Shown here: one piece after another, positions 489-16,821 of the stretch
Position numbering within the stretch: position 1 is the stretch's first letter
How the letters are laid out: each line of letters starts with the position of its first letter
Origin: a virus
Taxonomy: Duplodnaviria; Heunggongvirae; Uroviricota; Caudoviricetes
IMG/VR virus record: IMGVR_UViG_2639763151_000002
Strand: one strand, 5' to 3'
Length of the DNA stretch: 17,168 nucleotides
Notes under the pieces: model-generated
What the model was told of the DNA's origin: nothing
What the model saw: only the letters and a program-made list of their open reading frames with translations
Database searches by the model: none
Translations under genes and position numbers: made by a program

Positions 489-851
489 ATGCGTGATATG
501 TATGAAGTATTGGACCGCTGGGGAGCATGGGCTGCAGCAGAAAATAGTGGTGTGGACTGGCAGCCGATAGCGGCTGGTTTCAAGGGACTTTTACCACACG
601 GTAAAAAGTCACGTCTCCAGTGTGATGATGATGAAGGCATCATGATAGACGGTTGTGTGGCTCGGTTGCGAAAGTATAAACCAGAGGAATATGAGCTAAT
701 CATAGCTCACTTTGTTATTGGTATCTCATTACGCACTATTGCCAAGAAGAGAAGATGTTCAGATGGCACAATTAGGAAGGAATTGCAGACTGCCATGGGG
801 TTTATCAGCGGTGTAATAATAACTATAAACCCCATTATGGTAGTTAATTAA
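489..851 (+). CDS. Q: late-gene antitermination protein Q (short, phage 21/82-type; not lambda Q family)
   Basis: Protein MRDMYEVLDRWGAWAA...IAAGFKGLL...CSDG...RKELQ matches the short Q family of E. coli prophages as recalled. ATG at 489 is preceded by GGAG at 478-481; the listed ORF start at 474 is a TTG. It lies directly upstream of the lysis cassette. Confidence 0.75.
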   Translation: MRDMYEVLDRWGAWAAAENSGVDWQPIAAGFKGLLPHGKKSRLQCDDDEGIMIDGCVARLRKYKPEEYELIIAHFVIGISLRTIAKKRRCSDGTIRKELQTAMGFISGVIITINPIMVVN

Positions 852-1419
852 TGTGAATCCTATCACCAAGATAGTATAGTCCAAAAAATGTTGAAACAAG
901 CATTTGCCATGTAAGGAATAAAAAGATAATGATATAGCACCAGTTTGCTATATCATTATTCAGTATGTTTATTAGTGGTGTGATAAAAGCGTTGAAAATC
1001 ACTATGCATATGCTGAGGGCAGTTAAAAATGAAAATAACATGCACAGAAATAATCTTCTGGTAAGTTTCTCTTGAGTGTCAACAATTCTACCATTTTCTT
1101 TTGTTCGTGTAATTTTAATAAAAGGAGTGCCATTAGTTCCTATCAGAGGGTAGTCAATTTGTTCTCTGTTGAAAGTGGCTATTGCTGCAAGAGCTGCTAT
1201 ATAAAAACCTGGCAGATTTGATACAAATCCAGATATAGACTTAATAAAGCCGCCATCTTTTAGTAGGTCTGATGTAGGTATTTTAAATAAATAAAAGTAA
1301 AAAAAAGAAATCACAGCAAGCCCGGCAGGTGCATAAAAATCGTATGCGCACTTACCACTAATTCCCTTAATGAAAAGGTAACCAAACGGTCTAAATAAAT
1401 GTGAAAATATACTAATCAT
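844..1419 (-). CDS. hypothetical integral membrane protein, 191 aa, about four predicted TM helices; second gene of the AT-rich cassette
   Basis: Uninterrupted ORF with GAGG 7 nt upstream of the ATG at 1419. Hydrophobic stretches AGLAVISFFYFYLF, GFYIAALAAIATF, LFLCMLFSFLTALSICIVIF and WCYIIIFLFLTWQMLVSTFFGLYYL. No lambda counterpart. Confidence 0.7.
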   Translation of the reverse strand: MISIFSHLFRPFGYLFIKGISGKCAYDFYAPAGLAVISFFYFYLFKIPTSDLLKDGGFIKSISGFVSNLPGFYIAALAAIATFNREQIDYPLIGTNGTPFIKITRTKENGRIVDTQEKLTRRLFLCMLFSFLTALSICIVIFNAFITPLINILNNDIANWCYIIIFLFLTWQMLVSTFFGLYYLGDRIHIN

Positions 1420-1426
1420 ATTAGCC

Positions 1427-2455
1427 TCACATGACCTCGATAATCTTATTCACAAACTCCATGTTAATACTATCATAAGAATCCTTTAAGCGCGAAGAAA
1501 AACCATTTATTACACTCTTTTTGATAAATGTTTTTTCCAGCCCATCCAGCCTTACATTTGAAGTTTGAAGGTCAACTTGTCTTGTGAATCCTGTCTCTGG
1601 CTCTTTGAATTTTATTTTTATTAAGTCATAACCTCCATTTTTATCTTCTTTAAAGAAGTTTGAGACAGATTTTATCCATCCAAGGACATTGTTGGGGCCA
1701 TGGTTTGGTACTAAGCGTAAAGTACTTTCTTTAGGAATAATAGCCGCGTTAACATCTGGCGCATTAATAGTTCTGTATTCATTCTTTACCAAAACGACAT
1801 CAGAAAGTCCTTCTTTATTTATTTTATTGAACAAATCTTCATCTAACTTTCCAGATATATCAAAGACTGGCTTGTATAATACTTTTATTTTTTTCTTTGT
1901 TAAACTTGACACTTCATTTGTTAAAGTGTTACATGAAAAGATATCTTCATTATCTTTGGCTACGTTAAAGAGAACTTTATTCAGGAAACCATTTATTTTT
2001 GCTGTGGAAACTCCTGGTATTGGCATAAAACTCATGTCATACGTTCGCATATTTCCGTCTAGAGAAATAATCATATGAGAAGAAACTTCGTAACCTTCAC
2101 CTTCCTCATGTTTTGGTGATATTTCGGTGCGAACATCTGTATTAATGTTTTTTAATACAGTAGTGCTTCCATTTTTATCTACAGCATTAATTAAAAGACC
2201 AAGATGGCTGGGTTTTTTATCGGCTCTGTTTGATAAGAATATTACATCTTGTAAAGTTAAAACTAAGTCTCCTTTTTCATAACTGTGCATCATTGCTTTA
2301 CAACGTACTATTTTAGAAGCAAGTTCACGCATTGTTGGTACCGGGCAAACACAGTTCGATCTGATGCTATCATCAATTTTCTGTGTACGGTATTGTGTAT
2401 CGATCGTAATAGTATGATGAGTTATTACTCTACTAAATGCGTCCAGTGTAGCCAT
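1427..2455 (-). CDS. hypothetical soluble protein, 342 aa, Lys/Asn-rich; first gene of the AT-rich cassette
   Basis: Long ORF in about 30% GC DNA whose stop lies 7 nt upstream of the membrane gene start, giving an operon arrangement. No Walker A, HNH or other motif was recognised by eye. Confidence 0.7.
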   Translation of the reverse strand: MATLDAFSRVITHHTITIDTQYRTQKIDDSIRSNCVCPVPTMRELASKIVRCKAMMHSYEKGDLVLTLQDVIFLSNRADKKPSHLGLLINAVDKNGSTTVLKNINTDVRTEISPKHEEGEGYEVSSHMIISLDGNMRTYDMSFMPIPGVSTAKINGFLNKVLFNVAKDNEDIFSCNTLTNEVSSLTKKKIKVLYKPVFDISGKLDEDLFNKINKEGLSDVVLVKNEYRTINAPDVNAAIIPKESTLRLVPNHGPNNVLGWIKSVSNFFKEDKNGGYDLIKIKFKEPETGFTRQVDLQTSNVRLDGLEKTFIKKSVINGFSSRLKDSYDSINMEFVNKIIEVM

Positions 2456-2742: not shown

Positions 2743-3069
2743 ATGCCTCATAACCCAAATACCTGGCTGGAGTTGGTCCAGAGCTGGTGGCGTGGAGACA
2801 CACCACTGGGCGCAGTGATTATGTCGATTGTTATGGCTGGATTGCGCATTGCCTATTTTGGCGGTGGTGGTGGGTGGAAGCGAAAAACGCTCGAGATTTT
2901 GCTCTGTGGTGCTCTGACGCTGACTTTTGCATCCGCTCTTGAGTATGTCGGATGGCCTAAATCTCTTTCTGTTGCCATTGGTGGCGGTGTTGGGCTGATT
3001 GGTGTCGATGCAATTCGTGGGGTTGCAATGCGAGTAATCGGTAACAAATTTGGTAGCTCGAAGGAGTAA
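2743..3069 (+). CDS. holin (class I-like, three predicted TM helices); not lambda S family
   Basis: 108-aa protein with three hydrophobic segments and a charged C-terminus, ending 3 nt before the endolysin R start. SD GAGGTGAGAG precedes the ATG. Confidence 0.7.
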   Translation: MPHNPNTWLELVQSWWRGDTPLGAVIMSIVMAGLRIAYFGGGGGWKRKTLEILLCGALTLTFASALEYVGWPKSLSVAIGGGVGLIGVDAIRGVAMRVIGNKFGSSKE

Positions 3070-5690: not shown

Positions 5691-5885
5691 TCATTCTTCA
5701 TCACTTTTAATTGATGTATATGCTCTCTTTTCTGACGTTAGCCTCCGACGGCAGGCTTCAATGACCCAGGCTGAGAAATTTCCGGACCCTTTTTGATCAA
5801 GAGCGATGTTAATTTGTTCAATCATTTGGTTAGGAAAGCGGATGTTGCGGGTTGTTGTTCTGCGGGTTCTGTTCTTCGTTGACAT
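5691..5885 (-). CDS. small basic hypothetical protein (YlcI/DUF3950-like), 64 aa
   Basis: Intact ORF MSTKNRTRRTTTRNIRFPNQMIEQINIALDQKGSGNFSAWVIEACRRRL about 200 bp upstream of cos; it resembles small prophage proteins at this position. No clear SD was examined. Confidence 0.4.
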   Translation of the reverse strand: MSTKNRTRRTTTRNIRFPNQMIEQINIALDQKGSGNFSAWVIEACRRRLTSEKRAYTSIKSDEE

Positions 5886-6084
5886 GAGGTTGCCCCGTAT
5901 TCAGTGTCGCTGATTTGTATTGTCTGAAGTTGTTTTTACGTTAAGTTGATGCGGATCAATTAATACGATACCTGCGTCATAATTGATTATTTGACGTGGT
6001 TTGATGGCGTAGATGCACGTTGTGACATGTAGATGATAATTATTATCATTTTGCGGGTCCTTTCCGGCGATCCGACAGGTTACG

Positions 6085-6096
6085 GGGCGGCGACCT
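6085..6096 (+). other. cosN, the 12-nt cohesive-end sequence GGGCGGCGACCT (terminase nicking site)
   Basis: Exact lambda cohesive-end sequence, flanked by lambda-like GACAGGTTACG upstream and CGCGG.TTTTC.CTATTTATGAAAATTTT downstream. Confidence 0.85.
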
Positions 6097-6272
6097 CGCG
6101 GTTTTTCACTATTTATGAAAATTTTTCAGGGAAAATCGTGTCGGTACTTCTCGAATATAACTTTTTGTTTTTTTTTATATTGCATCCGTAAAGGTCCGAC
6201 ATGAAAGTGTCCGAAAATGCCTTTTTCTGGCGTTTTCATGTCGGGCCTTGTATTTGATAATGGGTTGTTTTC
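6097..6272 (+). promoter_or_regulatory. cosB-like terminase small-subunit binding region between cosN and Nu1
   Basis: The cosN-proximal block resembles lambda, then diverges. Inverted repeat GGTCCGACATGAAA (6193-6206) / TTTCATGTCGGGCC (6234-6247) plus a half-repeat GTCCGAAAATG (6209-6219), consistent with R-type Nu1 sites. Confidence 0.55.
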
Positions 6273-6821
6273 ATGAAGGTTAATAAAAAGAGGCTTGCCG
6301 AAATTTTCAACGTGGACCCGCGGACGATTGAACGCTGGCAGTCTCAGGGACTCCCTTGCGCCTCCAAAGGTAGTAAGGGCATTGAATCTGTATTTGATAC
6401 TGCCATGGCAATTCAGTGGTATGCGCAGAGGGAAACTGATATCGAAAACGAAAAGCTCCGCAAAGAACTGGACGATTTGCGTGCGGCAGCGGAGTCAGAT
6501 TTACAACCCGGCACCATTGACTATGAACGCTACCGGCTCACAAAAGCGCAGGCAGATGCGCAGGAACTGAAAAATGCCCGTGAAGACGGAGTAGTGCTGG
6601 AAACTGAACTGTTTACCTTCATTCTGCAACGTGTGGCACAGGAGATTTCGGGGATACTTGTGCGTGTGCCGTTGACATTACAGCGTAAATATCCGGACAT
6701 TTCACCATCACACCTTGATGTGGTGAAAACTGAAATCGCGAAAGCCTCCAATGTTGCAGCTAAGGCCGGTGAAAACGTGGGCGGGTGGATCGATGATTTC
6801 AGACGCGCAGAAGGCAGCTAA
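6273..6821 (+). CDS. Nu1: terminase small subunit Nu1
   Basis: 182 aa [12 protein letters not shown]...[11 protein letters not shown], aligning with lambda Nu1 (MEVNKKQLADIF...) but diverged in the N-terminal DNA-binding part. Confidence 0.9.
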
Positions 6822-8721
6822 TGCAGCCGGTGCGATAGCTACAGGGCTTTTATCTCTCATTATTCCTGTTCCACTGACGACAGTTCAGTGGGCCAATAAA
6901 CATTATTACCTTCCTAAAGAGTCGTCTTATACCCCGGGGCGGTGGGAAACACTGCCGTTTCAGGTTGGCATCATGAACTGTATGGGCAACGATCTGATTC
7001 GCACGGTTAACCTGATTAAATCTGCCCGTGTTGGTTATACAAAGATGTTGCTGGGAGTGGAGGCTTATTTTATTGAGCATAAATCACGCAACAGCCTTCT
7101 TTTTCAGCCCACGGACTCAGCTGCTGAAGATTTTATGAAATCTCATGTTGAGCCAACGATAAGGGATGTTCCTGCATTGCTGGAGCTGGCTCCATGGTTC
7201 GGAAGAAAACACCGCGATAATACGCTCACCCTGAAGCGTTTTTCCTCCGGTGTGGGGTTCTGGTGTCTGGGTGGTGCGGCAGCAAAAAACTACCGTGAAA
7301 AATCCGTGGATGTGGTCTGTTATGACGAGCTTTCCTCGTTCGAACCGGATGTTGAAAAAGAGGGTTCGCCAACCCTGCTGGGGGATAAACGTATTGAGGG
7401 CTCTGTATGGCCAAAATCCATTCGCGGCTCGACGCCTAAAATCAAAGGCTCCTGCCAGATCGAAAAAGCCGCTAACGAGTCGGCACACTTCATGCGTTTT
7501 TATGTGCCCTGTCCGCACTGTGGGGAGGAGCAGTATCTGAAATTTGGCGATGATGCCTCGCCTTTCGGTCTTAAGTGGGAGAAGAATAAGCCAGAAAGTG
7601 TTTTCTACCTTTGTGAGCATCATGGCTGTGTGATCCATCAGTCTGAGCTTGACCAGAGTAACGGGCGGTGGATCTGTGAAAACACGGGCATGTGGACCCG
7701 TGACGGCCTGATGTTTTTCAGCGCCCGGGGTGATGAAATTCCGCCGCCGCGCTCCATCACTTTCCATATCTGGACGGCGTACAGTCCGTTCACCACCTGG
7801 GTACAGATTGTCTATGACTGGCTGGATGCACTGAAAGATCCCAACGGCCTGAAAACCTTTGTGAACACCACGCTGGGCGAGACCTGGGAAGAGGCTGTGG
7901 GCGAAAAACTCGATCACCAGGTGCTGATGGATAAGGTTGTGCGTTACACGGCGGCGGTGCCTGCCCGGGTGGTTTATCTGACGGCGGGCATTGACTCGCA
8001 GCGAAACCGTTTTGAGATGTATGTCTGGGGATGGGCTCCGGGAGAGGAAGCCTTTCTGGTGGATAAAATCATCATTATGGGGCGTCCCGATGAGGAAGAG
8101 ACGCTGTTACGTGTGGATGCGGCGATCAACAAAAAATACCGCCATGCAGACGGAACCGAAATGACTATTTCCCGTGTCTGCTGGGACATCGGGGGGATCG
8201 ATGGCGAAATCGTTTATCAGAGGTCAAAAAAACACGGTGTTTTCCGGGTGCTGCCGGTAAAAGGCGCATCTGTCTATGGCAAGCCGGTGATCACCATGCC
8301 AAAAACCCGCAATCAGCGGGGCGTGTATCTGTGTGAAGTGGGGACGGACACCGCAAAAGAAATTCTCTATGCCCGTATGAAAGCCGATCCCACGCCTGTG
8401 GATGAAGCCACGTCGTATGCCATCCGTTTTCCTGATGATCCGGAGATTTTTTCGCAGACAGAGGCGCAGCAACTGGTCGCGGAAGAGCTTGTGGAGAAGT
8501 GGGAAAAAGGAAAGATGCGTCTGCTGTGGGATAACAAAAAGCGGCGTAACGAAGCGCTGGACTGCCTGGTGTATGCCTACGCGGCATTACGTGTGTCCGT
8601 GCAACGCTGGCAGCTTGATCTGGCTGTACTGGCAAAATCCCGGGAAGAAGAGACGACCCGGCCAACCCTTAAAGAACTGGCAGCGAAGCTGTCCGGAGGA
8701 GTGAATGGTTACAGTCGCTGA
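6793..8721 (+). CDS. A: terminase large subunit A
   Basis: Aligns along its full length with lambda gpA as recalled. The start was chosen at ATG 6793 ([13 protein letters not shown]...), which aligns residue-for-residue with the lambda gpA N-terminus; the listed ORF start at 6751 is further upstream and in frame. Confidence 0.95.
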
Positions 8722-8911
8722 ACTGCAGGCGCTGCGTCAGGCGCGCCTTGATTTATTAACCGGTAAACGGGTGGTGTCTGTCCAGAAAGATGGTCGCAGA
8801 ATTGAATATACGGCGGCTTCTCTGGATGAGCTTAACCGGGCGATCAATGATGCGGAGTCGGTACTGGGGACAACCCGGTGTCGCCGTCGTCCGCTGGGAG
8901 TGAGGTTATGA
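8705..8911 (+). CDS. W: head-tail joining protein W
   Basis: 68 aa, homologous to lambda gpW (LTGKRV..VQKDGRR.E.TA.S). SD GGAGGA at 8695-8700. Confidence 0.9.
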   Translation: MVTVAELQALRQARLDLLTGKRVVSVQKDGRRIEYTAASLDELNRAINDAESVLGTTRCRRRPLGVRL

Positions 8912-10500
8912 AACGAACGCCTGTCCTGATTGATGTGAACGGCGTTCCGCTTCGTGAGAGTCTCAGCTACAACGGGGGCGGTGCAGGATTTGGCGGGCAA
9001 ATGGCTGAGTGGTTGCCACCGGCGCAGAGTGCCGATGCGGCCCTGCTGCCCGCGTTGCGTCTGGGGAATGCCCGGGCAGATGATCTGGTGCGCAATAACG
9101 GAATAGCGGCTAATGCGGTGGCTCTGCATAAGGATCACATTGTCGGGCATATGTTTCTGATCAGCTACCGTCCGAACTGGCGCTGGCTGGGGATGCGGGA
9201 GACCGCAGCAAAAAGCTTTGTCGATGAGGTGGAGGCGGCCTGGTCGGAATACGCCGAAGGGATGTTTGGCGAGATCGACGTGGAAGGAAAACGCACGTTC
9301 ACGGAATTTATCCGTGAAGGTGTGGGCGTTCATGCGTTTAACGGCGAAATCTTTGTGCAGCCGGTCTGGGATACAGAAACCACGCAGTTATTCCGTACGC
9401 GTTTTAAAGCTGTGAGTCCGAAACGGGTGGACACGCCTGGACACGGTATGGGGAACCGTTTTCTGCGGGCCGGTGTGGAGGTCGATCGATATGGCCGTGC
9501 CGTCGCGTACCATATCTGTGAGGATGATTTTCCGTTCTCTGGTAGTGGACGATGGGAACGGATCCCGCGTGAACTTCCCACCGGGCGTCCGGCCATGCTG
9601 CATATTTTCGAGCCGGTGGAGGACGGGCAGACCCGTGGGGCTAATCAGTTTTACAGCGTCATGGAACGGCTGAAGATGCTCGATTCCCTGCAGGCAACAC
9701 AGCTTCAGTCGGCCATAGTGAAGGCGATGTATGCAGCGACGATTGAAAGTGAACTTGATACCGAAAAGGCCTTTGAATATATCGCCGGCGCGCCACAGGA
9801 GCAGAAGGATAATCCGCTTATTAATATTCTGGAGAAGTTCTCCAGCTGGTATGACACGAATAACGTGACACTGGGCGGTGTCAAAATTCCGCACCTTTTC
9901 CCTGGTGATGATCTGAAACTACAGACTGCGCAGGATTCAGACAATGGATTTTCTGCACTTGAACAGGCGCTGCTGCGGTATATCGCCGCCGGTCTTGGCG
10001 TTTCCTACGAACAGTTGTCCCGTGATTACTCGAAGGTCAGTTACTCAAGTGCCCGCGCCTCCGCCAATGAGTCGTGGCGCTATTTTATGGGGCGGCGAAA
10101 ATTTATTGCGGCCCGGCTGGCCACGCAGATGTTTTCCTGCTGGCTGGAAGAGGCACTTCTTCGGGGGATTATTCGTCCGCCACGGGCACGTTTTGATTTT
10201 TATCAGGCGCGATCAGCCTGGTCACGGGCAGAGTGGATTGGTGCCGGAAGAATGGCCATTGACGGGCTCAAGGAAGTCCAGGAATCAGTGATGCGCATTG
10301 AGGCCGGACTGAGCACGTATGAGAAAGAGCTGGCGCTGATGGGCGAGGATTATCAGGACATTTTCCGCCAGCAGGTCAGGGAATCTGCAGAGCGGCAAAA
10401 AGCCGGACTCTCACGTCCGGTGTGGATATCGCAGGCGTATCAGCAGCAGATAGCGGAGAGTCGCAGGCCGGAAGAGGAGACAACACCACGTGAGACGTAA
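8908..10500 (+). CDS. B: portal protein B
   Basis: Start at ATG 8908 (MKRTPVLID...) overlapping the W stop; strong similarity to lambda gpB throughout (GNARADDLVRNNG, FEPVEDGQTRGAN, LQSAIVKAMYAATIESELDT...). Confidence 0.95.
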   Translation: MKRTPVLIDVNGVPLRESLSYNGGGAGFGGQMAEWLPPAQSADAALLPALRLGNARADDLVRNNGIAANAVALHKDHIVGHMFLISYRPNWRWLGMRETAAKSFVDEVEAAWSEYAEGMFGEIDVEGKRTFTEFIREGVGVHAFNGEIFVQPVWDTETTQLFRTRFKAVSPKRVDTPGHGMGNRFLRAGVEVDRYGRAVAYHICEDDFPFSGSGRWERIPRELPTGRPAMLHIFEPVEDGQTRGANQFYSVMERLKMLDSLQATQLQSAIVKAMYAATIESELDTEKAFEYIAGAPQEQKDNPLINILEKFSSWYDTNNVTLGGVKIPHLFPGDDLKLQTAQDSDNGFSALEQALLRYIAAGLGVSYEQLSRDYSKVSYSSARASANESWRYFMGRRKFIAARLATQMFSCWLEEALLRGIIRPPRARFDFYQARSAWSRAEWIGAGRMAIDGLKEVQESVMRIEAGLSTYEKELALMGEDYQDIFRQQVRESAERQKAGLSRPVWISQAYQQQIAESRRPEEETTPRET

Positions 10501-11995
10501 TCTTTCACACATTATTGCCGCAGCATTCAATGAACCGCTGCTTCTGGAGCCCGCCTATGCGCGGGTTTTCTTTTGCGCGCTCGGGCGCGAGATGGGGGCA
10601 GCAAGTCTTTCGGTACCACAACAGCAGGTACAGTTTGATGCTCCCGGAATGCTGGCTGAAACGGACGAGTACATGGCCGGAGGTAAACGACCGGCCCGTG
10701 TTTACAGGGTGGTGAACGGTATTGCTGTACTGCCGGTGACCGGCACGCTGGTGCACCGGCTGGGTGGTATGCGGCCATTTTCCGGAATGACAGGCTATGA
10801 CGGTATTGTCGCCTGTCTTCAGCAGGCAATGGCGGATAGCCAGGTGCGGGGCGTACTGCTGGACATTGACAGTCCGGGCGGGCAGGCCGCCGGCGCGTTT
10901 GACTGCGCTGACATGATTTACCGCCTCCGTCAGCAGAAGCCGGTCTGGGCACTGTGCAATGACACGGCCTGTTCTGCAGCCATGCTGCTGGCGTCGGCCT
11001 GCTCCCGACGGCTGGTTACCCAGACATCCCGTATCGGCTCCATTGGCGTGATGATGAGCCATGTCAGCTATGCCGGTCATCTGGCGCAGGCCGGTGTGGA
11101 TATCACGCTGATTTACTCAGGTGCGCACAAGGTGGATGGCAATCAGTTTGAAGCGTTGCCGGCAGAGGTTCGCCAGGACATGCAGCAGCGGATTGATGCG
11201 GCGCGCCGGATGTTTGCCGAAAAAGTGGCGATGTATACCGGTCTGTCTGTTGATGCCGTCACGGGAACAGAGGCTGCCGTTTTTGAAGGTCAGTCCGGCA
11301 TTGAGGCCGGGCTGGCGGATGAATTAATCAATGCGTCGGATGCCATCAGTGTGATGGCCACGGCGCTGAACAGTAATGTCAGAGGAGGCACTATGCCGCA
11401 ATTAACTGCAACGGAAGCCGCCGCGCAGGAGAACCAGCGAGTGATGGGGATCCTGACATGCCAGGAAGCGAAAGGACGTGAACAGCTTGCCACGATGCTG
11501 GCAGGACAACAGGGCATGAGCGTTGAACAGGCCCGGGCGATTCTGGCCGCGGCGGCACCGCAGCAGCCGGTGGCATCCACGCAGAGTGAAGCCGATCGCA
11601 TTATGGCGTGTGAAGAAGCGAACGGTCGTGAACAACTGGCGGCAACGCTGGCGGCGATGCCGGAGATGACGGTGGAAAAAGCCCGCCCGATCCTGGCTGC
11701 TTCACCGCAGGCGGATGCCGGACCATCACTCCGTGATCAGATCATGGCACTGGATGAGGCAAAAGGGGCTGAGGCGCAGGCTGAACAGCTGGCTGCCTGC
11801 CCGGGAATGACAGTGGAGAGCGCCCGGGCTGTGCTGGCTGCGGGATCAGGTAAGGCAGAACCGGTCTCTGCATCCACAACCGCCATGTTTGAACATTTCA
11901 TGGCGAACCATTCACCGGCAGCGGTACAGGGTGGCGTGCCACAGACGTCAGCAGACGGTGATGCGGACGTGAAAATGCTCATGGCCATGCCATGA
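10490..11995 (+). CDS. C: head maturation protease/scaffold protein C (ClpP/SppA-like protease domain), C-terminal region expanded by tandem repeats
   Basis: N-terminal two-thirds is similar to lambda gpC (AFNEPLLLEPAYARVFFCAL, NGIAVLPVTGTLV, KPVWAL.ND, GSIGVMM). It is 501 aa against about 439 aa in lambda. Confidence 0.9.
   Translation: MRRNLSHIIAAAFNEPLLLEPAYARVFFCALGREMGAASLSVPQQQVQFDAPGMLAETDEYMAGGKRPARVYRVVNGIAVLPVTGTLVHRLGGMRPFSGMTGYDGIVACLQQAMADSQVRGVLLDIDSPGGQAAGAFDCADMIYRLRQQKPVWALCNDTACSAAMLLASACSRRLVTQTSRIGSIGVMMSHVSYAGHLAQAGVDITLIYSGAHKVDGNQFEALPAEVRQDMQQRIDAARRMFAEKVAMYTGLSVDAVTGTEAAVFEGQSGIEAGLADELINASDAISVMATALNSNVRGGTMPQLTATEAAAQENQRVMGILTCQEAKGREQLATMLAGQQGMSVEQARAILAAAAPQQPVASTQSEADRIMACEEANGREQLAATLAAMPEMTVEKARPILAASPQADAGPSLRDQIMALDEAKGAEAQAEQLAACPGMTVESARAVLAAGSGKAEPVSASTTAMFEHFMANHSPAAVQGGVPQTSADGDADVKMLMAMP
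11393..11995 (+). CDS. Nu3: Nu3-like scaffolding protein, in-frame internal initiation within C
   Basis: Internal ATG at 11393 preceded by a strong SD AGAGGAGG at 11380-11387, in the same frame and with the same stop as C, as for lambda Nu3. Confidence 0.6.
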   Translation: MPQLTATEAAAQENQRVMGILTCQEAKGREQLATMLAGQQGMSVEQARAILAAAAPQQPVASTQSEADRIMACEEANGREQLAATLAAMPEMTVEKARPILAASPQADAGPSLRDQIMALDEAKGAEAQAEQLAACPGMTVESARAVLAAGSGKAEPVSASTTAMFEHFMANHSPAAVQGGVPQTSADGDADVKMLMAMP

Positions 11996-12031
11996 AGTCA
12001 GTGCTGACCATCAATAGGAGGTTTTTACAAT

Positions 12032-12379
12032 ATGGTGACGAAAACCATCACTGAACAGCGTGCGGAAGTACGTATTTTTGCCGGTAATGATCCGGCTCAT
12101 ACCGCCACAGGCAGCAGCGGGATTTCTTCTGCAACACCGGCTCTGACGCCCCTGATGCTGGATGAAGCCACCGGGAAACTGGTGGTCTGGGACGGACAGA
12201 AAGCCGGTAGTGCGGTTGGCATACTGGTACTGCCGCTTGAAGGCACAGAGACGGCGCTGACGTATTACAAGTCGGGAACCTTTGCGACGGAGGCAATCCA
12301 CTGGCCTGAAAGTGTGGATGAACACAAAAAGGCCAACGCCTTTGCTGGCAGTGCCCTGAGTCACGCGGCGCTGCCGTAA
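12032..12379 (+). CDS. D: head decoration protein D
   Basis: 115 aa with DPAHTAT...TPLMLD...WDG...VGIL...YKSGTF...FAG, matching lambda gpD. SD AGGAGG upstream. Confidence 0.9.
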   Translation: MVTKTITEQRAEVRIFAGNDPAHTATGSSGISSATPALTPLMLDEATGKLVVWDGQKAGSAVGILVLPLEGTETALTYYKSGTFATEAIHWPESVDEHKKANAFAGSALSHAALP

Positions 12380-12386
12380 CACGTTA

Positions 12387-12408
12387 TCAGGCCACTGCGG
12401 TGGCCTGA
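12387..12408 (+). other. stem-loop immediately downstream of D
   Basis: TCAGGCCAC / GTGGCCTGA, a 9-bp stem with loop TGCG, followed by only a weak T tract. Confidence 0.35.
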
Positions 12409-12436
12409 CTGATTTCTGAATGAAAGGAACTGATTT

Positions 12437-13465
12437 ATGGGATTGTTTACGACCCGCCAGTTACTCGGTTATACCGAACAAAAAGTTAAATTTCGTGCGC
12501 TGTTTCTGGAACTGTTTTTCCGCCGTACGGTGAATTTCCATACCGAAGAGGTGATGCTGGACAAAATTACCGGAAAAACGCCGGTGGCGGCCTATGTCTC
12601 CCCGGTTGTTGAAGGAAAAGTGCTGCGTCATCGTGGTGGTGAAACCCGCGTGTTGCGTCCGGGCTACGTCAAGCCGAAACACGAATTTAATTACCAGCAG
12701 GCGGTTGAGCGCCTTCCTGGTGAAGATCCATCTCAACTGAATGATCCGGCTTACCGCCGTCTGCGTATCATTACCGATAACCTCAAACAGGAAGAGCACG
12801 CGATTGTCCAGGTGGAAGAAATGCAGGCGGTAAATGCTGTGTTGTATGGCAAATACACCATGGAAGGAGACCAGTTCGAGAAAATTGAGGTCGATTTTGG
12901 CAGGTCGACGAAGAATAACATCACTCAGGGTAGTGGTAAGGAGTGGTCAAAACAGGATCGTGACACGTTCGATCCTGCGCATGATATTGACCTCTACTGC
13001 GACCAGGCCAGCGGTCTTGTGAATATTGCCATTATGGACGGTACCGTCTGGCGTCTTCTGAATGGTTTTAAGCTGTTCCGCGAAAAACTGGATACCCGTC
13101 GCGGTTCAAATTCTCAACTCGAAACGGCAGTGAAAGATCTGGGCGCAGTGGTGTCCTTCAAGGGGTATTACGGCGATCTGGCCATTGTGGTGGCGAAAAC
13201 GTCTTATATAGCAGAAGACGGTATCGAAAAACGTTATCTTCCAGATGGCATGCTGGTTCTGGGGAATACTGCTGCAGATGGGATCCGTTGTTACGGTGCC
13301 ATTCAGGATGCTCAGGCGTTGTCCGAAGGTGTGGTGGCCTCTTCCCGTTATCCGAAACACTGGCTGACGGTAGGGGATCCCGCCCGTGAATTTACCATGA
13401 CGCAGTCCGCGCCGCTGATGGTGTTGCCGGACCCGGATGAGTTTGTGGTGGTACAGGTGAAATAA
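12437..13465 (+). CDS. E: major capsid protein E
   Basis: 342 aa, strongly similar to lambda gpE (PGYVKPKHE, IVQVEEMQAV, DTRRGSNS.LETAVKDLG, GDPAREFTM.QSAPLM). Confidence 0.95.
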   Translation: MGLFTTRQLLGYTEQKVKFRALFLELFFRRTVNFHTEEVMLDKITGKTPVAAYVSPVVEGKVLRHRGGETRVLRPGYVKPKHEFNYQQAVERLPGEDPSQLNDPAYRRLRIITDNLKQEEHAIVQVEEMQAVNAVLYGKYTMEGDQFEKIEVDFGRSTKNNITQGSGKEWSKQDRDTFDPAHDIDLYCDQASGLVNIAIMDGTVWRLLNGFKLFREKLDTRRGSNSQLETAVKDLGAVVSFKGYYGDLAIVVAKTSYIAEDGIEKRYLPDGMLVLGNTAADGIRCYGAIQDAQALSEGVVASSRYPKHWLTVGDPAREFTMTQSAPLMVLPDPDEFVVVQVK

Positions 13466-13472
13466 TCCGTGA

Positions 13473-13502
13473 GCGGGGGCGAAATGCCCCCGTGTCTTTT
13501 TT
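13473..13502 (+). terminator. GC-rich hairpin plus T-run between E and FI (candidate partial terminator or mRNA-stabilising structure)
   Basis: GCGGGGGC gaaat GCCCCCGT followed by GTCTTTTTT. Confidence 0.45.
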
Positions 13503-13516
13503 CACAGGGGGCTGAT

Positions 13517-13891
13517 ATGGCAACGAAAGAGCAAAATCTGAAACGGCTTGATGAACTGGCCCTGATTCTGGGGCGTGAGCCGGATATATCCGGGAGTGCC
13601 GCAGAGATAGCGCAGCGGGTGGCAGAATGGGAAGAGGAAATGCAGTCATCCGGCGATGATGTACAGGTTATGAATATGGATATCCGGGAGCGGGAAACCG
13701 CGGCTCATGATGTTCGTGAGGAAACATCCGGCGCGTTAACGCCCATCAGAGTTCTGACCTGCCTCCATCTCTGTGGCGTTGATGGTGAAACGGGGGAATC
13801 CGTTGAGCTTGCGGATGTTGGTCGGGTGATTCTGATTATGTCCTCAGATGCAAAAACACACGTTGATGGTGGAATGGCTGTTTATGCGTGA
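13517..13891 (+). CDS. FI: DNA-packaging protein FI (diverged from lambda FI)
   Basis: Position between E and FII. Start chosen at ATG 13517 (SD AGGGGG at 13506-13511), downstream of the hairpin; acidic protein with an N-terminal pattern like lambda FI. Confidence 0.7.
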   Translation: MATKEQNLKRLDELALILGREPDISGSAAEIAQRVAEWEEEMQSSGDDVQVMNMDIRERETAAHDVREETSGALTPIRVLTCLHLCGVDGETGESVELADVGRVILIMSSDAKTHVDGGMAVYA

Positions 13892-14237
13892 TTTTCAGAA
13901 TGCCTTTGATGCCGCCCTTGCCGGGGTGGACAGTACGATTGTTGAAGTGATGGGCATCAGTGCGCAGTTCACCTCCGGTGCACAGCGTGGCGGCGAGGTT
14001 CATGGCGTTTTTGACGATCCGGAGTCGCTGGGTTTTGCCAGTAGTGGGATCCGTATTGAAGGAAGTAACCCGTCATTATTTGTGCTTACGGATACGGTTT
14101 GTGCTGTACGGCGTGGTGACACGCTGACCATTAACGGCGAGATGTTCTGGGTGGACCGTGTTTCTCCGGATGACGGAGGGAGTTGTTATCTCTGGCTCAA
14201 CCGGGGGCAACCACCTGCCGCCAGCCGTCGTCGCTGA
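13884..14237 (+). CDS. FII: head-tail connector/head completion protein FII
   Basis: Start MRDFQNAFDAA overlapping the FI stop; strong similarity to lambda gpFII (GVFDDPE, VDRVSPDDGGSC.LWL). Confidence 0.9.
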   Translation: MRDFQNAFDAALAGVDSTIVEVMGISAQFTSGAQRGGEVHGVFDDPESLGFASSGIRIEGSNPSLFVLTDTVCAVRRGDTLTINGEMFWVDRVSPDDGGSCYLWLNRGQPPAASRRR

Positions 14238-14248
14238 AAGGGGGATGT

Positions 14249-14827
14249 ATGGCCATACAGGGTCTTGAGCAGGCCGTTGAAAACCTCAGCCGTATCAGCA
14301 AAACGGCGGTGCCCGGTGCCTCCGCAATGGCCATTAACCGCGTTGCTTCATCCGCGATATCGCAGTCTGCGTCACAGGTTGCCCGTGAGACAAAGGTACG
14401 CCGGAAACTGGTAAAGGAAAGGGCCAGGCTGAAAAGGGCCACGGTCAAAAATCCGCAGGCCAGAATCAAGGTTAACCGGGGGGATTTGCCCGTAATCAGG
14501 CTGGGTAACGCGCGGGTTGTCCTGTCCCGACGCAGGCGTCGTAAAAAGGGGCAGCGTTCATCCCTGAAAGGTGGCGACAGCGTGCTTGTGGTGGGAAACC
14601 GTCGTATTCCCGGCGCGTTTATTCAGCAACTGAAAAATGGCCGCTGGCATGTCATGCAGCGTGTGGCCGGGAAAAACCGTTACCCCATTGATGTGGTGAA
14701 AATTCCGATGGCGGTGCCGCTGACCACGGCGTTTAAACAGAATATTGAGCGGATACGGCGTGAGCGTCTTCCGAAAGAGCTGGGCTATGCGCTGCAGCAT
14801 CAACTGAGGATGGTAATAAAGCGATGA
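14249..14827 (+). CDS. Z: tail completion protein Z
   Basis: 192 aa from MAIQGLEQAVENLSRISKTAVPG..., near-identical to lambda gpZ as recalled. Confidence 0.95.
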   Translation: MAIQGLEQAVENLSRISKTAVPGASAMAINRVASSAISQSASQVARETKVRRKLVKERARLKRATVKNPQARIKVNRGDLPVIRLGNARVVLSRRRRRKKGQRSSLKGGDSVLVVGNRRIPGAFIQQLKNGRWHVMQRVAGKNRYPIDVVKIPMAVPLTTAFKQNIERIRRERLPKELGYALQHQLRMVIKR

Positions 14828-15219
14828 AACATACTGAATTCCGTGCAGCCGTACTGGATGCACTGGAAAAACATGACACCGGGGCGACGCTTTTTGATGG
14901 TCGCCCCGCTGTTTTTGATGAGGCGGATTTTCCGGCAATTGCCGTTTATCTCACCGGCGCTGAATACACGGGCGAAGAGCTGGACAGCGATACCTGGCAG
15001 GCGGAGCTGCATATTGAAGTTTTCCTGCCTGCTCAGGTGCCGGATTCAGAGCTGGATTCGTGGATGGAAAGCCGGATTTATCCGGCGATGAGCGATATCC
15101 CGGCACTGTCAGATTTGATCACCAGTATGGTGGCCAGTGGCTATGACTACCGGCGCGACGATGATGCGGGCCTGTGGAGTTCAGCCGATCTGACTTATGT
15201 CATTACCTATGAAATGTGA
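14824..15219 (+). CDS. U: tail terminator protein U
   Basis: 131 aa [22 protein letters not shown]..., near-identical to lambda gpU as recalled. Confidence 0.95.
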
Positions 15220-15226
15220 GGACGAT

Positions 15227-15967
15227 ATGCCAACACCAAATCCTCTGGCACCGGTGAAAGGGGCCGGAACCACACTGTGGGTTTATAACGGGAGCGGCGA
15301 CCCTTATGCAAACCCGCTTTCAGACAATGACTGGTCGCGTCTGGCAAAAATTAAAGACCTGACGCCCGGCGAACTGACCGCTGAGTCCTATGACGACAGT
15401 TATCTCGATGATGAAGATGCGGACTGGACCGCGACCGGGCAGGGGCAGAAATCCGCCGGAGATACCAGCTTCACGCTGGCGTGGATGCCCGGAGAGCAGG
15501 GGCAGCAGGCGCTGCTGGCGTGGTTTAATGAAGGTGATACCCGTGCCTATAAAATCCGCTTCCCGAACGGCACGGTCGATGTGTTCCGTGGCTGGGTCAG
15601 CAGTATCGGTAAGGCGGTGACGGCGAAGGAAGTGATCACCCGTACGGTGAAGGTCACCAATGTGGGCCGTCCGTCAATGGCAGAAGATCGCAGTACGGTG
15701 ACGGCGGCAACCGGTATGACCGTGACGCCTGCCAGCTCCTCGGTGGTGAAAGGGCAGAGCACCACGCTGACCGTGGCCTTCCAGCCGGAGGGCGCAACTG
15801 ACAAGAGCTTCCGTGCGGTGTCAGCGGATAAAACAAAAGCCACCGTGTCGGTCAGTGGTATGACCATCACCGTGAACGGCGTTGCTGCAGGCAGGGTCAA
15901 CATTCCGGTTGTATCCGGTAATGGTGAACTTGCTGCGGTTGCAGAAATCACTGTCACCGACAGTTAA
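15227..15967 (+). CDS. V: major tail tube protein V (with C-terminal Ig-like domain)
   Basis: Start [14 protein letters not shown] at 15227; near-identical to lambda gpV as recalled. Confidence 0.95.
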
Positions 15968-15982
15968 TCCGGAGAGTCAGCG

Positions 15983-16405
15983 ATGTTCCTGAAAACCGAA
16001 TCATTTGAACATAACGGCGTGACCGTCACGCTTTCTGAACTGTCAGCCCTGCAGCGTATTGAGCATCTCGCCCTGATGAAACAGCAGGCAGAACAGGCGG
16101 AGTCAGACAGCAACCGGCAGGTTACTGTGGAAGACGCCATCAGAACCGGTGCTTTTGTGGTGGCGATGTCCCTGTGGCATAACCATTCGCAGAAGACAAA
16201 GCAGCCTTCCATGAATGAAGCCGTTAAACAGATTGAGCAGGAAGTGCTTACCACCTGGCCCGCGGAGGCAATTTCTCATGCTGAAAACGTGGTGTACCGG
16301 CTGTCCGGTATGTATGGGTTTGTGGTGAATGATGCCCCTGACCAGGCAGAGGACTCCGGGCCTGCAGAGCCTGTTTCTGCGGGAAAGTGTTCGACGGTGA
16401 GCTGA
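15983..16405 (+). CDS. G: tail assembly chaperone G
   Basis: 140 aa MFLKTESFEHNGVTVTLSELSALQRIEHL..., near-identical to lambda gpG as recalled. Confidence 0.95.
   Translation: MFLKTESFEHNGVTVTLSELSALQRIEHLALMKQQAEQAESDSNRQVTVEDAIRTGAFVVAMSLWHNHSQKTKQPSMNEAVKQIEQEVLTTWPAEAISHAENVVYRLSGMYGFVVNDAPDQAEDSGPAEPVSAGKCSTVS
16381..16387 (+). promoter_or_regulatory. programmed -1 ribosomal frameshift slippery heptamer GGGAAAG (G to G-T fusion)
   Basis: G GGA AAG lies near the 3' end of G; the -1 frame continues as the T ORF. Confidence 0.8.
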
Positions 16406-16821
16406 GTTTTGCCCTGAAACTGGCGCGAGAGATGGGGCGACCTGACTGGCGCGCCATGCTTGCCGGGATGTCATCCACGGAGTATGCCGACTGGCACCGC
16501 TTTTACAGTACCCATTATTTTCATGATGTTCTGCTGGATATGCACTTTTCCGGGCTGACGTACACTGTGCTCAGCCTGTTTTTCAGCGATCCGGATATGC
16601 ATCCGCTGGATTTCAGTTTGCTGAACCGGCGTGAGGATGACGAAGAGCCTGAAGATGATGTGCTGATGCAGAAAGCGGCAGGGCTTACCGGAGGCGTCCG
16701 CTTTGACCCGGACGGAAATGAAGTTATCCCCGCTTCCCCGGATATGGCGGGCATGACGGAGGATGACGTAATGCTGATGACAGTATCAGAAGGGATCGCA
16801 GGAGGAGTCCGGTATGGCTGA
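16387..16821 (+). CDS. T: tail assembly protein T, expressed as the -1 frameshift extension of G (gpGT)
   Basis: 144-aa -1 frame ORF MFDGELSFALKLAREMGRPDWRAMLAGMSSTEYADW..., near-identical to lambda gpT as recalled. Confidence 0.85.
   Translation: MFDGELSFALKLAREMGRPDWRAMLAGMSSTEYADWHRFYSTHYFHDVLLDMHFSGLTYTVLSLFFSDPDMHPLDFSLLNRREDDEEPEDDVLMQKAAGLTGGVRFDPDGNEVIPASPDMAGMTEDDVMLMTVSEGIAGGVRYG

What the first reader, a model, noticed from the sequence alone, without database searches (positions are those of the whole stretch)
6097..6330. Lambda cosN with a non-lambda cosB and Nu1 DNA-binding region (packaging-specificity swap)
cosN and the proximal block resemble lambda, but the region carrying lambda's R-type sites is replaced by different repeats: inverted GGTCCGACATGAAA / TTTCATGTCGGGCC and a GTCCGAAAATG half-site. 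The Nu1 N-terminus (winged-helix region) is also diverged while A is lambda-like. This fits co-variation of the terminase small subunit and its binding sites, as known for lambda versus phage 21 packaging specificity.
Basis: partly seen in the sequence, partly recalled or inferred. Interest (0 to 1): 0.45.

Follow-up and report, generated by a model that had tools for sequence, protein, structure and literature searches.

The report
Phage 21 cos site and terminase
This stretch is the well-studied DNA-packaging start site (cos) of coliphage 21, with its matching small terminase gene, sitting in an E. coli prophage; it is the textbook example of lambda-versus-21 packaging specificity and not a new one.

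Summary

- **Identity to phage 21.** Window 6085-9084 differs from the phage 21 left end (OL657228) at 4 of 3000 bases. Only one difference lies in cos, at 6176 between I1 and R2. Gene 1 (TerS) is identical at the nucleotide level.
The inverted repeats are cosB-21 boxes R2 (6191-6206, inverted) and R1 (6234-6249).
- **More than chance.** The R-box core TCRTGTCGG occurs three times in 17 kb, all in cosB, against 0.22 expected.
- **Comparison with lambda.** cosQ and the 12-base cohesive end match lambda exactly. cosB aligns position for position at only 60% identity, with the published specificity bases changed (bp 56 T to G, bp 59 C to G).
- **TerS.** Recognition-helix residues 20, 21 and 24 differ from lambda. 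Residues 1-54 are identical to PDB 7LWR.
- **The "GTCCGAAAATG half-site".** It is not conserved in diverged 21-type cosBs, so it is probably not a site.
- **"A is lambda-like".** This is only partly true: 64% identity overall and 38% over the N-terminal 48 residues. That region pairs with the equally diverged TerS C-terminus (31%).
- **Spread.** 21-type cosB occurs in about 22% of complete E. coli genomes.

Already known; low interest.

The parts
6055..6061 (+). cosQ (GGGTCCT), the packaging-termination subsite, 30-24 bp left of the top-strand nick
   Evidence: Read directly from the sequence. Annotated as cosQ in OL657228 at the equivalent position and as 'R4' in M81255. Identical in lambda and phage 21.
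6085..6096 (+). 12-base cohesive-end sequence GGGCGGCGACCT inside cosN. The top-strand nick falls between 6084 and 6085. The M81255 cosN annotation maps to about 6068-6114.
   Evidence: Aligns to base 1-12 of the phage 21 and lambda virion DNAs, 12/12.
6114..6128 (+). I2 segment between cosN and cosB (conserved, lambda-like)
   Evidence: M81255 annotation mapped through alignment A1. The block 6085-6133 is 86% identical to lambda.
6134..6149 (+). cosB R3, AATCGTGTCGGTACTT, a TerS binding site (phage 21 bp 50-65). It carries the 21-specific G at bp 56 (6140) and G at bp 59 (6143).
   Evidence: Annotated in OL657228 and M81255. Identical to phage 21. The core TGTCGGTACTT is invariant in 8 diverged 21-type cosBs. 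The roles of bp 56 and 59 are from PMC4669245.
6156..6170 (.). [quoted passage not shown]
   Evidence: Annotations in M81255, OL657228 and X02501. Conserved across the 21-type sequences and lambda.
6191..6206 (-). cosB R2 (reverse complement TTTCATGTCGGACCTT), a TerS binding site inverted relative to R3 and R1.
   Evidence: Invariant in 6 of 8 21-type relatives.
6209..6219 (+).
   Evidence: Not annotated in any phage 21 record. It varies (GCCTGA, GCCTAA, GCCCGA, CCCCGA, GCCCAA) in relatives whose R boxes are invariant. It is out of register with R2.
6234..6249 (+). cosB R1, TTTCATGTCGGGCCTT, a TerS binding site.
6256..6270 (+). Putative IHF site I0, overlapping the gene 1 ribosome-binding site (6262-6265)
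   Evidence: Annotations in M81255 and X02501, mapped by alignment. Marked putative in the records.
6273..6821 (+). Gene 1, the terminase small subunit (TerS-21, 182 aa). [quoted passage not shown]
   Evidence: 100% nucleotide identity to phage 21 gene 1. Pfam Phage_Nu1, 1.9e-81. Residues 1-54 are identical to PDB 7LWR_A and homologous to lambda Nu1 DBD 1J9I.
6793..8721 (+). Gene 2, the terminase large subunit (TerL-21, 642 aa), overlapping gene 1 by 29 nt
   Evidence: Three third-codon-position differences from phage 21. Pfam GpA_ATPase plus GpA_nuclease. 64-67% identical to lambda gpA overall, 38% over the N-terminal 48 aa.

Best explanation
Window 6055-6270 is the cos site of coliphage 21 (cosQ, cosN, I2 and cosB-21 = R3-I1-R2-R1), in prophage form. 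It is followed by phage 21 terminase genes 1 (TerS) and 2 (TerL).

Inferred mechanism, based on published work on this same sequence and on lambda:
1. Dimers of the TerS-21 winged helix-turn-helix domain read the three R boxes.
2. IHF bends the DNA at I1, so that R3 and the inverted R2 face each other.
3. The TerS C-terminus holds TerL, which nicks cosN 12 bp apart and then translocates the DNA.
4. cosQ plus cosN terminate packaging at the next cos.

Specificity against lambda comes from the R-box bases (G at bp 56 and G at bp 59 in 21, T and C in lambda) together with recognition-helix residues (E20, R21 and S24 here; Q20, N21 and E24 in lambda). A second, independent specificity pair is the TerS C-terminus with the TerL N-terminus.
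For: Shown here:
- 99.9% identity to phage 21 records X02501 and OL657228. There are 4 mismatches in 3000 bases, none in cosQ, cosN, any R box, I1 or gene 1.
- The deposited annotations place R3, I1, R2 and R1 exactly on the repeats.
- The R-box core occurs 3 times, only in cosB, against 0.22 expected.
- cosB versus lambda is 60% identical in a collinear alignment, and R3 bp 56 and 59 are changed.
- blastn 'distant' with cosB finds only 21-type phages and no lambda.
- Comparative co-variation: eight E. coli loci with 75-100% identical 21-type cosBs keep the R-box cores. All of them encode the 21-type helix RTIERWQ(S/T)QG. Their TerS C-termini are either 21-type or lambda-type.
- TerS residues 1-54 equal PDB 7LWR, and lambda Nu1 DBD 1J9I is a homologue.

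From the literature:
- bp 56 and 59 and Glu24 are specificity determinants (PMC4669245).
Against: Nothing in the data contradicts this. No binding or packaging experiment was done on this particular prophage. The single A-to-T change at 6176 (phage 21 bp 92, in the T-run between I1 and R2) is untested, but that position varies among relatives. Whether the host prophage is inducible is unknown.
Confidence: 0.97

Rival explanations
1. The cosB is really lambda-type, and the repeats are incidental.
For: The layout and spacing are collinear with lambda. cosQ, cosN, I2 and I1 are lambda-like.
Against: - R boxes are 47-69% identical to lambda's, and the specificity bases bp 56 and 59 are changed.
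- A blastn 'distant' search with cosB retrieves no lambda-type phage.
- The sequence is identical to cosB-21, which lambda terminase does not use (PMC4669245).
Confidence: 0.01
2. The R2-R1 inverted repeat acts mainly as an RNA hairpin or terminator on the late transcript upstream of gene 1, and not as protein-binding sites.
For: As RNA, 6194-6249 folds into a 26-bp hairpin of -35.5 kcal/mol, z = -7.85. The lambda equivalent also folds, at -34.4 kcal/mol and z = -6.1. A weak terminator-like hit lies at 6226-6245.
Against: - The hairpin follows automatically from two inverted 16-bp protein sites.
- The inner stem is not maintained by compensatory change: 2 of 21 pairs show double changes and several are broken.
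- It does not explain R3, a third copy in direct orientation 100 bp away across an IHF site.
- There is no proper T-tract after the stem.
- Published genetics assign the R boxes to TerS binding.
Confidence: 0.03
3. It is a relic cos in a defective prophage, or the cos of a satellite (PICI) that hijacks a helper terminase. In either case it would not be a working phage packaging module.
For: The window is chromosomal prophage DNA. Many E. coli lambdoid prophages are cryptic. One relative (L011) has a 21-like cosB and a TerS-like gene without TerL.
Against: - cos is followed by intact TerS, TerL, head-tail joining, portal, protease, decoration and capsid genes.
- Window 6085-17168 is 99.5% identical to phage 21 over 11 kb.
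- All cos subsites are identical to the functional phage's.
- PICI cos sites lack R2, R1 and I1 (PMC9026076).
Confidence: 0.05

Closest known systems
Coliphage 21 cos and terminase genes 1 and 2 (GenBank X02501, M81255, OL657228)
   Same: Essentially identical. cosQ, cosN, I2, R3, I1, R2, R1 and gene 1 are 100% identical. There is one substitution in cos (6176) and three synonymous-position changes in gene 2. The head and tail genes through 17168 are 99.5% identical.
   Different: The DNA to the left of cosN (5899-6084) is lambda-like, not 21-like. The upstream late region carries a lambda-family holin, a GH24 lysozyme, Rz, bor, ybcV, ybcW and ylcI. The prophage is therefore a mosaic that carries the phage 21 packaging and head module, not phage 21 itself.
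Phage lambda cos (cosB-lambda) with Nu1 and gpA
   Same: Same architecture and spacing (cosQ-cosN-I2-R3-I1-R2 inverted-R1). cosQ and the cohesive end are identical. It uses the same protein families (Phage_Nu1; GpA ATPase and nuclease).
   Different: R boxes are TGTCGG-type, not TTTCC-type, and cosB is 60% identical. TerS is 52% identical, with recognition-helix changes at residues 20, 21 and 24. The TerS C-terminus is 31% and the TerL N-terminus 38% identical. The two phages are mutually incompatible in packaging initiation (PMC4669245).
Laboratory lambda-21 hybrid TerS, and the natural O157-type prophage TerS (L006, L010)
   Same: They have the same 21-type R boxes and the same 21-type N-terminal DNA-binding domain.
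   Different: Their TerS becomes lambda-type from about residue 64 onward, so it would pair with a lambda-type TerL. The window's TerS is 21-type throughout.
Phage N15 simple cosB and PICI cos-rpp
   Same: Lambda-like cosQ and cosN, and a TerS-family recognition protein (PMC4669245, PMC9026076).
   Different: Those have a single R3-type site and no I1, R2 or R1. The window has the full tripartite cosB.

Membership tests
Phage 21-type cos (cosB-21 packaging specificity) | Lambda-like 12-base 5' cohesive end GGGCGGCGACCT, with cosQ GGGTCCT about 30 bp upstream | tested here: met
   6085-6096 and 6055-6061 are identical to lambda and phage 21.
Phage 21-type cos (cosB-21 packaging specificity) | Three R boxes in the order R3-I1-R2-R1, with R2 inverted and R3 at bp 50-65 from the left end | tested here: met
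   R3 is at 6134-6149 (bp 50-65), R2 at 6191-6206 (minus strand) and R1 at 6234-6249.
Phage 21-type cos (cosB-21 packaging specificity) | 21-type R-box sequence (core CRTGTCGG; G at bp 56 and G at bp 59 of R3) | tested here: met
   R3 is AATCGTGTCGGTACTT, identical to phage 21. The base roles are from PMC4669245.
Phage 21-type cos (cosB-21 packaging specificity) | IHF site I1 between R3 and R2 | tested here: met
   The sequence ATAACTTTTTGTTT at 6156-6170 is identical to the site annotated in phage 21 and is conserved in relatives. IHF binding itself was not testable.
Phage 21-type cos (cosB-21 packaging specificity) | Cognate TerS with a Nu1-family winged HTH carrying the 21-type recognition helix | tested here: met
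   Pfam PF07471, 1.9e-81. Residues 1-54 are 100% identical to PDB 7LWR_A. Helix residues 17-24 read RTIERWQS, against lambda's RTIQNWQE.
Phage 21-type cos (cosB-21 packaging specificity) | TerS-21 binds the R boxes, and a 21-specific terminase (not a lambda one) initiates packaging | not testable with these tools
   Published for the identical sequence (PMC4669245, PMC9026076). No experiment was done on this prophage.
Lambda-specific cosB | Lambda-type R boxes (CGTTTCC core; T at bp 56 and C at bp 59) and Nu1 with Glu24 | tested here: not met
   R boxes are 47-69% identical to lambda's. bp 56 and 59 are G and G. Residue 24 is Ser.
N15 / PICI simple cosB | A single R3-type site with no I1, R2 or R1 | tested here: not met
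   Three R boxes and I1 are present.

The most novel reading that the evidence does not exclude
The R2-spacer-R1 palindrome (6194-6249) may do more than bind TerS. It could act as a strong RNA hairpin in the late transcript, 23 nt upstream of the gene 1 start codon, and tune TerS translation or mRNA stability. Alternatively, the lineage-specific GTCCGA element in the spacer could be a weak auxiliary TerS contact. Neither idea is excluded, but comparison with relatives does not favour either.
Probability: 0.07. Interest if true: 0.25.

Novelty: already known. Interest (0 to 1): 0.05.

Why it matters
It matters little as a discovery. The lambda/21 packaging-specificity system has been dissected genetically and structurally for decades, and this window carries the phage 21 version almost base for base. 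The result has three practical uses:

- **Annotation.** It fixes the exact prophage packaging origin (nick at 6084/6085) and the terminase specificity type.
- **Distribution.** 21-type cosB turns up in about 22% of complete E. coli genomes (1208 of 5426).
- **Modularity.** Natural prophages show the same domain shuffling that the laboratory hybrids revealed, with a 21-type DNA-binding domain joined to a lambda-type TerL-binding domain.

Tried and rejected
- **Half-site as a fourth R box.** Rejected. It shares only the hexamer GTCCGA with R2, in a shifted register. It is not annotated in any phage 21 record. It varies in diverged 21-type cosBs whose R boxes are invariant.
- **Inverted repeat as a terminator or structured RNA.** The hairpin is strong. 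However, its outer stem is simply R2/R1, its inner stem shows no consistent covariation, and no T-tract follows. I kept this only as a low-probability extra role.
- **Window as phage 21 itself.** Rejected. The DNA left of cosN is lambda-like, and the upstream late region matches other lambdoid prophages and is not part of the phage 21 match, which covers only 6085-17168.
- **Papers for 7LWR, 7LXS and 7LW0.** The search found no primary paper in the held library.
- **File access.** L002-L004 could not be read from the Python sandbox, so I made the window-versus-21 comparison with DNA alignment instead.

Full report
**What is there**

Reading 5700-7200 shows the lambda cohesive-end sequence GGGCGGCGACCT at 6085-6096 and GGGTCCT (cosQ) at 6055-6061. 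An ORF at 6273-6821 begins [12 protein letters not shown]..., and a long ORF overlaps its end.

A megablast of 5950-6900 against the phage collection gave phage 21 records as the top hits. X02501 and the complete genome OL657228 are 99.9% identical from window 6085, which is their base 1. M81255 is 99.1% identical. A direct alignment of window 6085-9084 to OL657228 1-3000 has no gaps and four mismatches:
- Window 6176 (phage 21 bp 92, T here and A in 21), in the T-run between I1 and R2.
- Three third-codon-position changes in gene 2, at phage 21 bp 858, 2082 and 2337.

Gene 1 is identical at the nucleotide level. The conversion is window coordinate = phage 21 coordinate + 6084.

**Mapping the known subsites**

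The deposited annotations, carried over through the alignments, give these positions:

| Subsite | Window coordinates | Note |
|---|---|---|
| cosQ | 6055-6061 | |
| cosN | about 6068-6114 | top-strand nick at 6084/6085 |
| I2 | 6114-6128 | |
| R3 | 6134-6149 | AATCGTGTCGGTACTT |
| I1 (IHF) | 6156-6170 | |
| R2 | 6191-6206 | inverted; reverse complement TTTCATGTCGGACCTT |
| R1 | 6234-6249 | TTTCATGTCGGGCCTT |
| I0 (putative) | 6256-6270 | |
| RBS | 6262-6265 | |
| gene 1 | 6273-6821 | |
| gene 2 | 6793-8721 | |

It missed R3 and I1.

**More than chance**

The repeat finder reports R2 and R1 as the outer part of a 27-nt inverted repeat that is 81% complementary. The core TCRTGTCGG occurs three times in the 17,168-base window, at R3, R2 and R1 only. 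The expectation is 0.22, and none of 200 shuffles reached three. The full 16-mer matches R2 and R1 with no mismatch.

**Comparison with lambda**

Segment identities in the collinear alignment with lambda 1-220:

| Segment | Identity to lambda |
|---|---|
| Cohesive end | 12/12 |
| 6085-6133 | 86% |
| R3 | 69% |
| R2 | 56% |
| R1 | 47% |
| cosB overall | 60% |

The alignment needs only two small indels. The R sites are therefore diverged homologues in a conserved layout, not an unrelated insert.

R3 bp 56 and 59 are G and G here, and T and C in lambda. The literature names these as the critical specificity base pairs (PMC4669245). A sensitive blastn with cosB alone (6125-6272) retrieved 14 phage records, all 21-type, and no lambda.

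**Proteins**

- Gene 1 is a Phage_Nu1 family protein (1.9e-81). Gene 2 has the GpA ATPase and nuclease domains.
- TerS against lambda Nu1 is 52-53% identical overall. By segment it is 53% over residues 1-68, 76% over 56-104 and 31% over 141-182.
- TerL against gpA is 64% identical in a global alignment and 67% in the BLAST local alignment, with 38% over the first 48 residues.
- Recognition helix 17-24 reads RTIERWQS here and RTIQNWQE in lambda, so residues 20, 21 and 24 differ. Wing residue Lys35 is kept. The helix and wing definitions come from PMC9026076.
- Residues 1-54 are 100% identical to PDB chain 7LWR_A. The lambda Nu1 DNA-binding domain 1J9I and TerS chain 6HN7_B are clear homologues.

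The most diverged parts are the TerS C-terminus and the TerL N-terminus. The TerS C-terminal part is the published TerL-binding specificity domain (PMC9026076 and PMC4669245). That the TerL N-terminus is its partner rests on my own knowledge of the Feiss laboratory's lambda-21 hybrid work.

**Comparative test of co-variation**

The 148-nt cosB segment is present at 80% coverage or more in 1208 of 5426 complete E. coli genomes. Two genomes are 100% identical over 6040-6290.

I fetched seven loci spanning 75-97% identity and aligned them.
- The R3 core TGTCGGTACTT and the CATGTCGG core of R1 are invariant.
- R2 is invariant in six of the eight 21-type sequences.
- I1 keeps ATAACTnnnTGTTT.

The TerS alignment shows that every one of these loci has the 21-type helix RTIERWQ(S/T)QG. 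The C-terminal half, by contrast, is 21-type in some loci (L007, L008, L012) and lambda-type in others (L006 and L010; in L009 up to its divergent C-terminal tail). So the DNA-binding domain tracks cosB and the C-terminus sorts independently. These are natural counterparts of the laboratory lambda-21 chimeric TerS described in PMC9026076.

**The 'half-site'**

GTCCGAAAATG (6209-6219) shares only GTCCGA with R2, and in a different register. No phage 21 record annotates it. In relatives whose R boxes are invariant, it reads GCCTGA, GCCTAA, GCCCGA, CCCCGA or GCCCAA. It is most likely spacer.

**RNA-structure rival**

As RNA, 6194-6249 would fold into a 26-bp hairpin of -35.5 kcal/mol with z = -7.85. 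The lambda equivalent folds to -34.4 kcal/mol with z = -6.1. The outer 14 pairs are simply R2 and R1 themselves. The inner pairs are not maintained by compensatory change. No T-tract follows the stem, and the hairpin does not account for R3. I keep it only as a minor possible extra role.

**Context**

RefSeq annotation of an identical locus (E. coli 04-00955) shows a lambdoid prophage late region in this order:
- a DUF968 protein and the Q antiterminator;
- two minus-strand hypothetical genes;
- a lambda-family holin, a GH24 lysozyme, Rz, bor, ybcV, ybcW and ylcI;
- cos, then TerS, TerL, the head-tail joining protein, portal, protease, decoration protein and capsid.

Window 6085-17168 is 99.5% identical to phage 21. 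The roughly 190 bp to the left of cosN are lambda-like and unlike phage 21's right end, apart from the last 60 bp or so. The mosaic joint therefore falls in the conserved cosQ-cosN-I2 block.

**Mechanism**

The mechanism is inferred from published work on this same sequence. [quoted passage not shown] The TerS C-terminus holds TerL-21, which nicks cosN and then powers translocation. cosQ and cosN terminate packaging at the next cos. Lambda and 21 share cosQ and cosN but discriminate more than 1000-fold at initiation, through the fit between the R boxes and the recognition helix (PMC4669245). The steps shown here are sequence identity, site architecture, statistical enrichment and cross-genome co-variation. 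Binding and packaging were not tested.

**Verdict**

The feature is the long-known phage 21 cos and terminase module in a mosaic E. coli prophage. Novelty: already known. Interest: low.

Noticed in passing
window 844-2455 (minus strand): ORFs 844-1419 (191 aa) and 1427-2455 (342 aa): A two-gene cassette on the opposite strand, between the Q antiterminator (about 489-851) and the holin (2743-3069). Neither protein has a Pfam match. They match PADLOC candidate defence system PDC-M53: subunit B at 1.7e-54 and subunit A at 1.3e-31. They also match PHROGs 8257 and 9879, both of unknown function. This looks like a defence moron at the position where Stx phages carry their toxin genes (the Stx comparison is from my own knowledge).
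   Followed up: partly
window 5885-6133: The DNA to the left of cosN is nearly identical to lambda's right end. It is unlike phage 21's right end except for the last 60 bp or so. Everything to the right of cosN is phage 21. The mosaic junction of this prophage therefore lies inside the conserved cosQ-cosN-I2 block.
   Followed up: partly
window 6194-6249: The R2-spacer-R1 segment would form a 26-bp RNA hairpin (-35.5 kcal/mol, z = -7.85) ending 23 nt before the gene 1 start codon. Lambda has an equivalent hairpin. The inner stem is not supported by covariation.
   Followed up: yes
L006:844-1386, L010:845-1387 and L009:845-1396 (O157-type and related E. coli prophages): These are natural chimeric TerS proteins. 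The N-terminal 60 residues or so are 21-type and sit next to 21-type R boxes, while the rest is lambda Nu1-type. They mirror the laboratory lambda-21 hybrid terminases. In L009, TerS ends in a divergent tail and is followed by a truncated Ail/Lom pseudogene, not by TerL.
   Followed up: partly
L011:626-1433 (E. coli CEA224S): This is the most diverged 21-like cosB (75% identical). Its R2 is degenerate (ACATACGACATCATAA), and the sequence at the cohesive-end position is different (GGTACGTGTACG). It is followed by a 194-aa TerS-like gene, with no TerL annotated in the 104 bp held downstream. It could be a satellite or a remnant.
   Followed up: no
L009, L007 and L008, at the cohesive-end columns of alignment A3: [quoted passage not shown] E24377A has GGGCGGAAGGCG and C5 has GGGCGGCAGCGG, and HNSQ2209 is more different still. 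This fits the published remark that bp 7-12 vary among lambda-like phages (PMC4669245).
   Followed up: no
window 6751-8721: The mechanical ORF list starts the TerL frame at an ATG at 6751 (656 aa). That is 42 nt upstream of the start at 6793 annotated in phage 21 and RefSeq. The 6793 start has its own annotated RBS.
   Followed up: no
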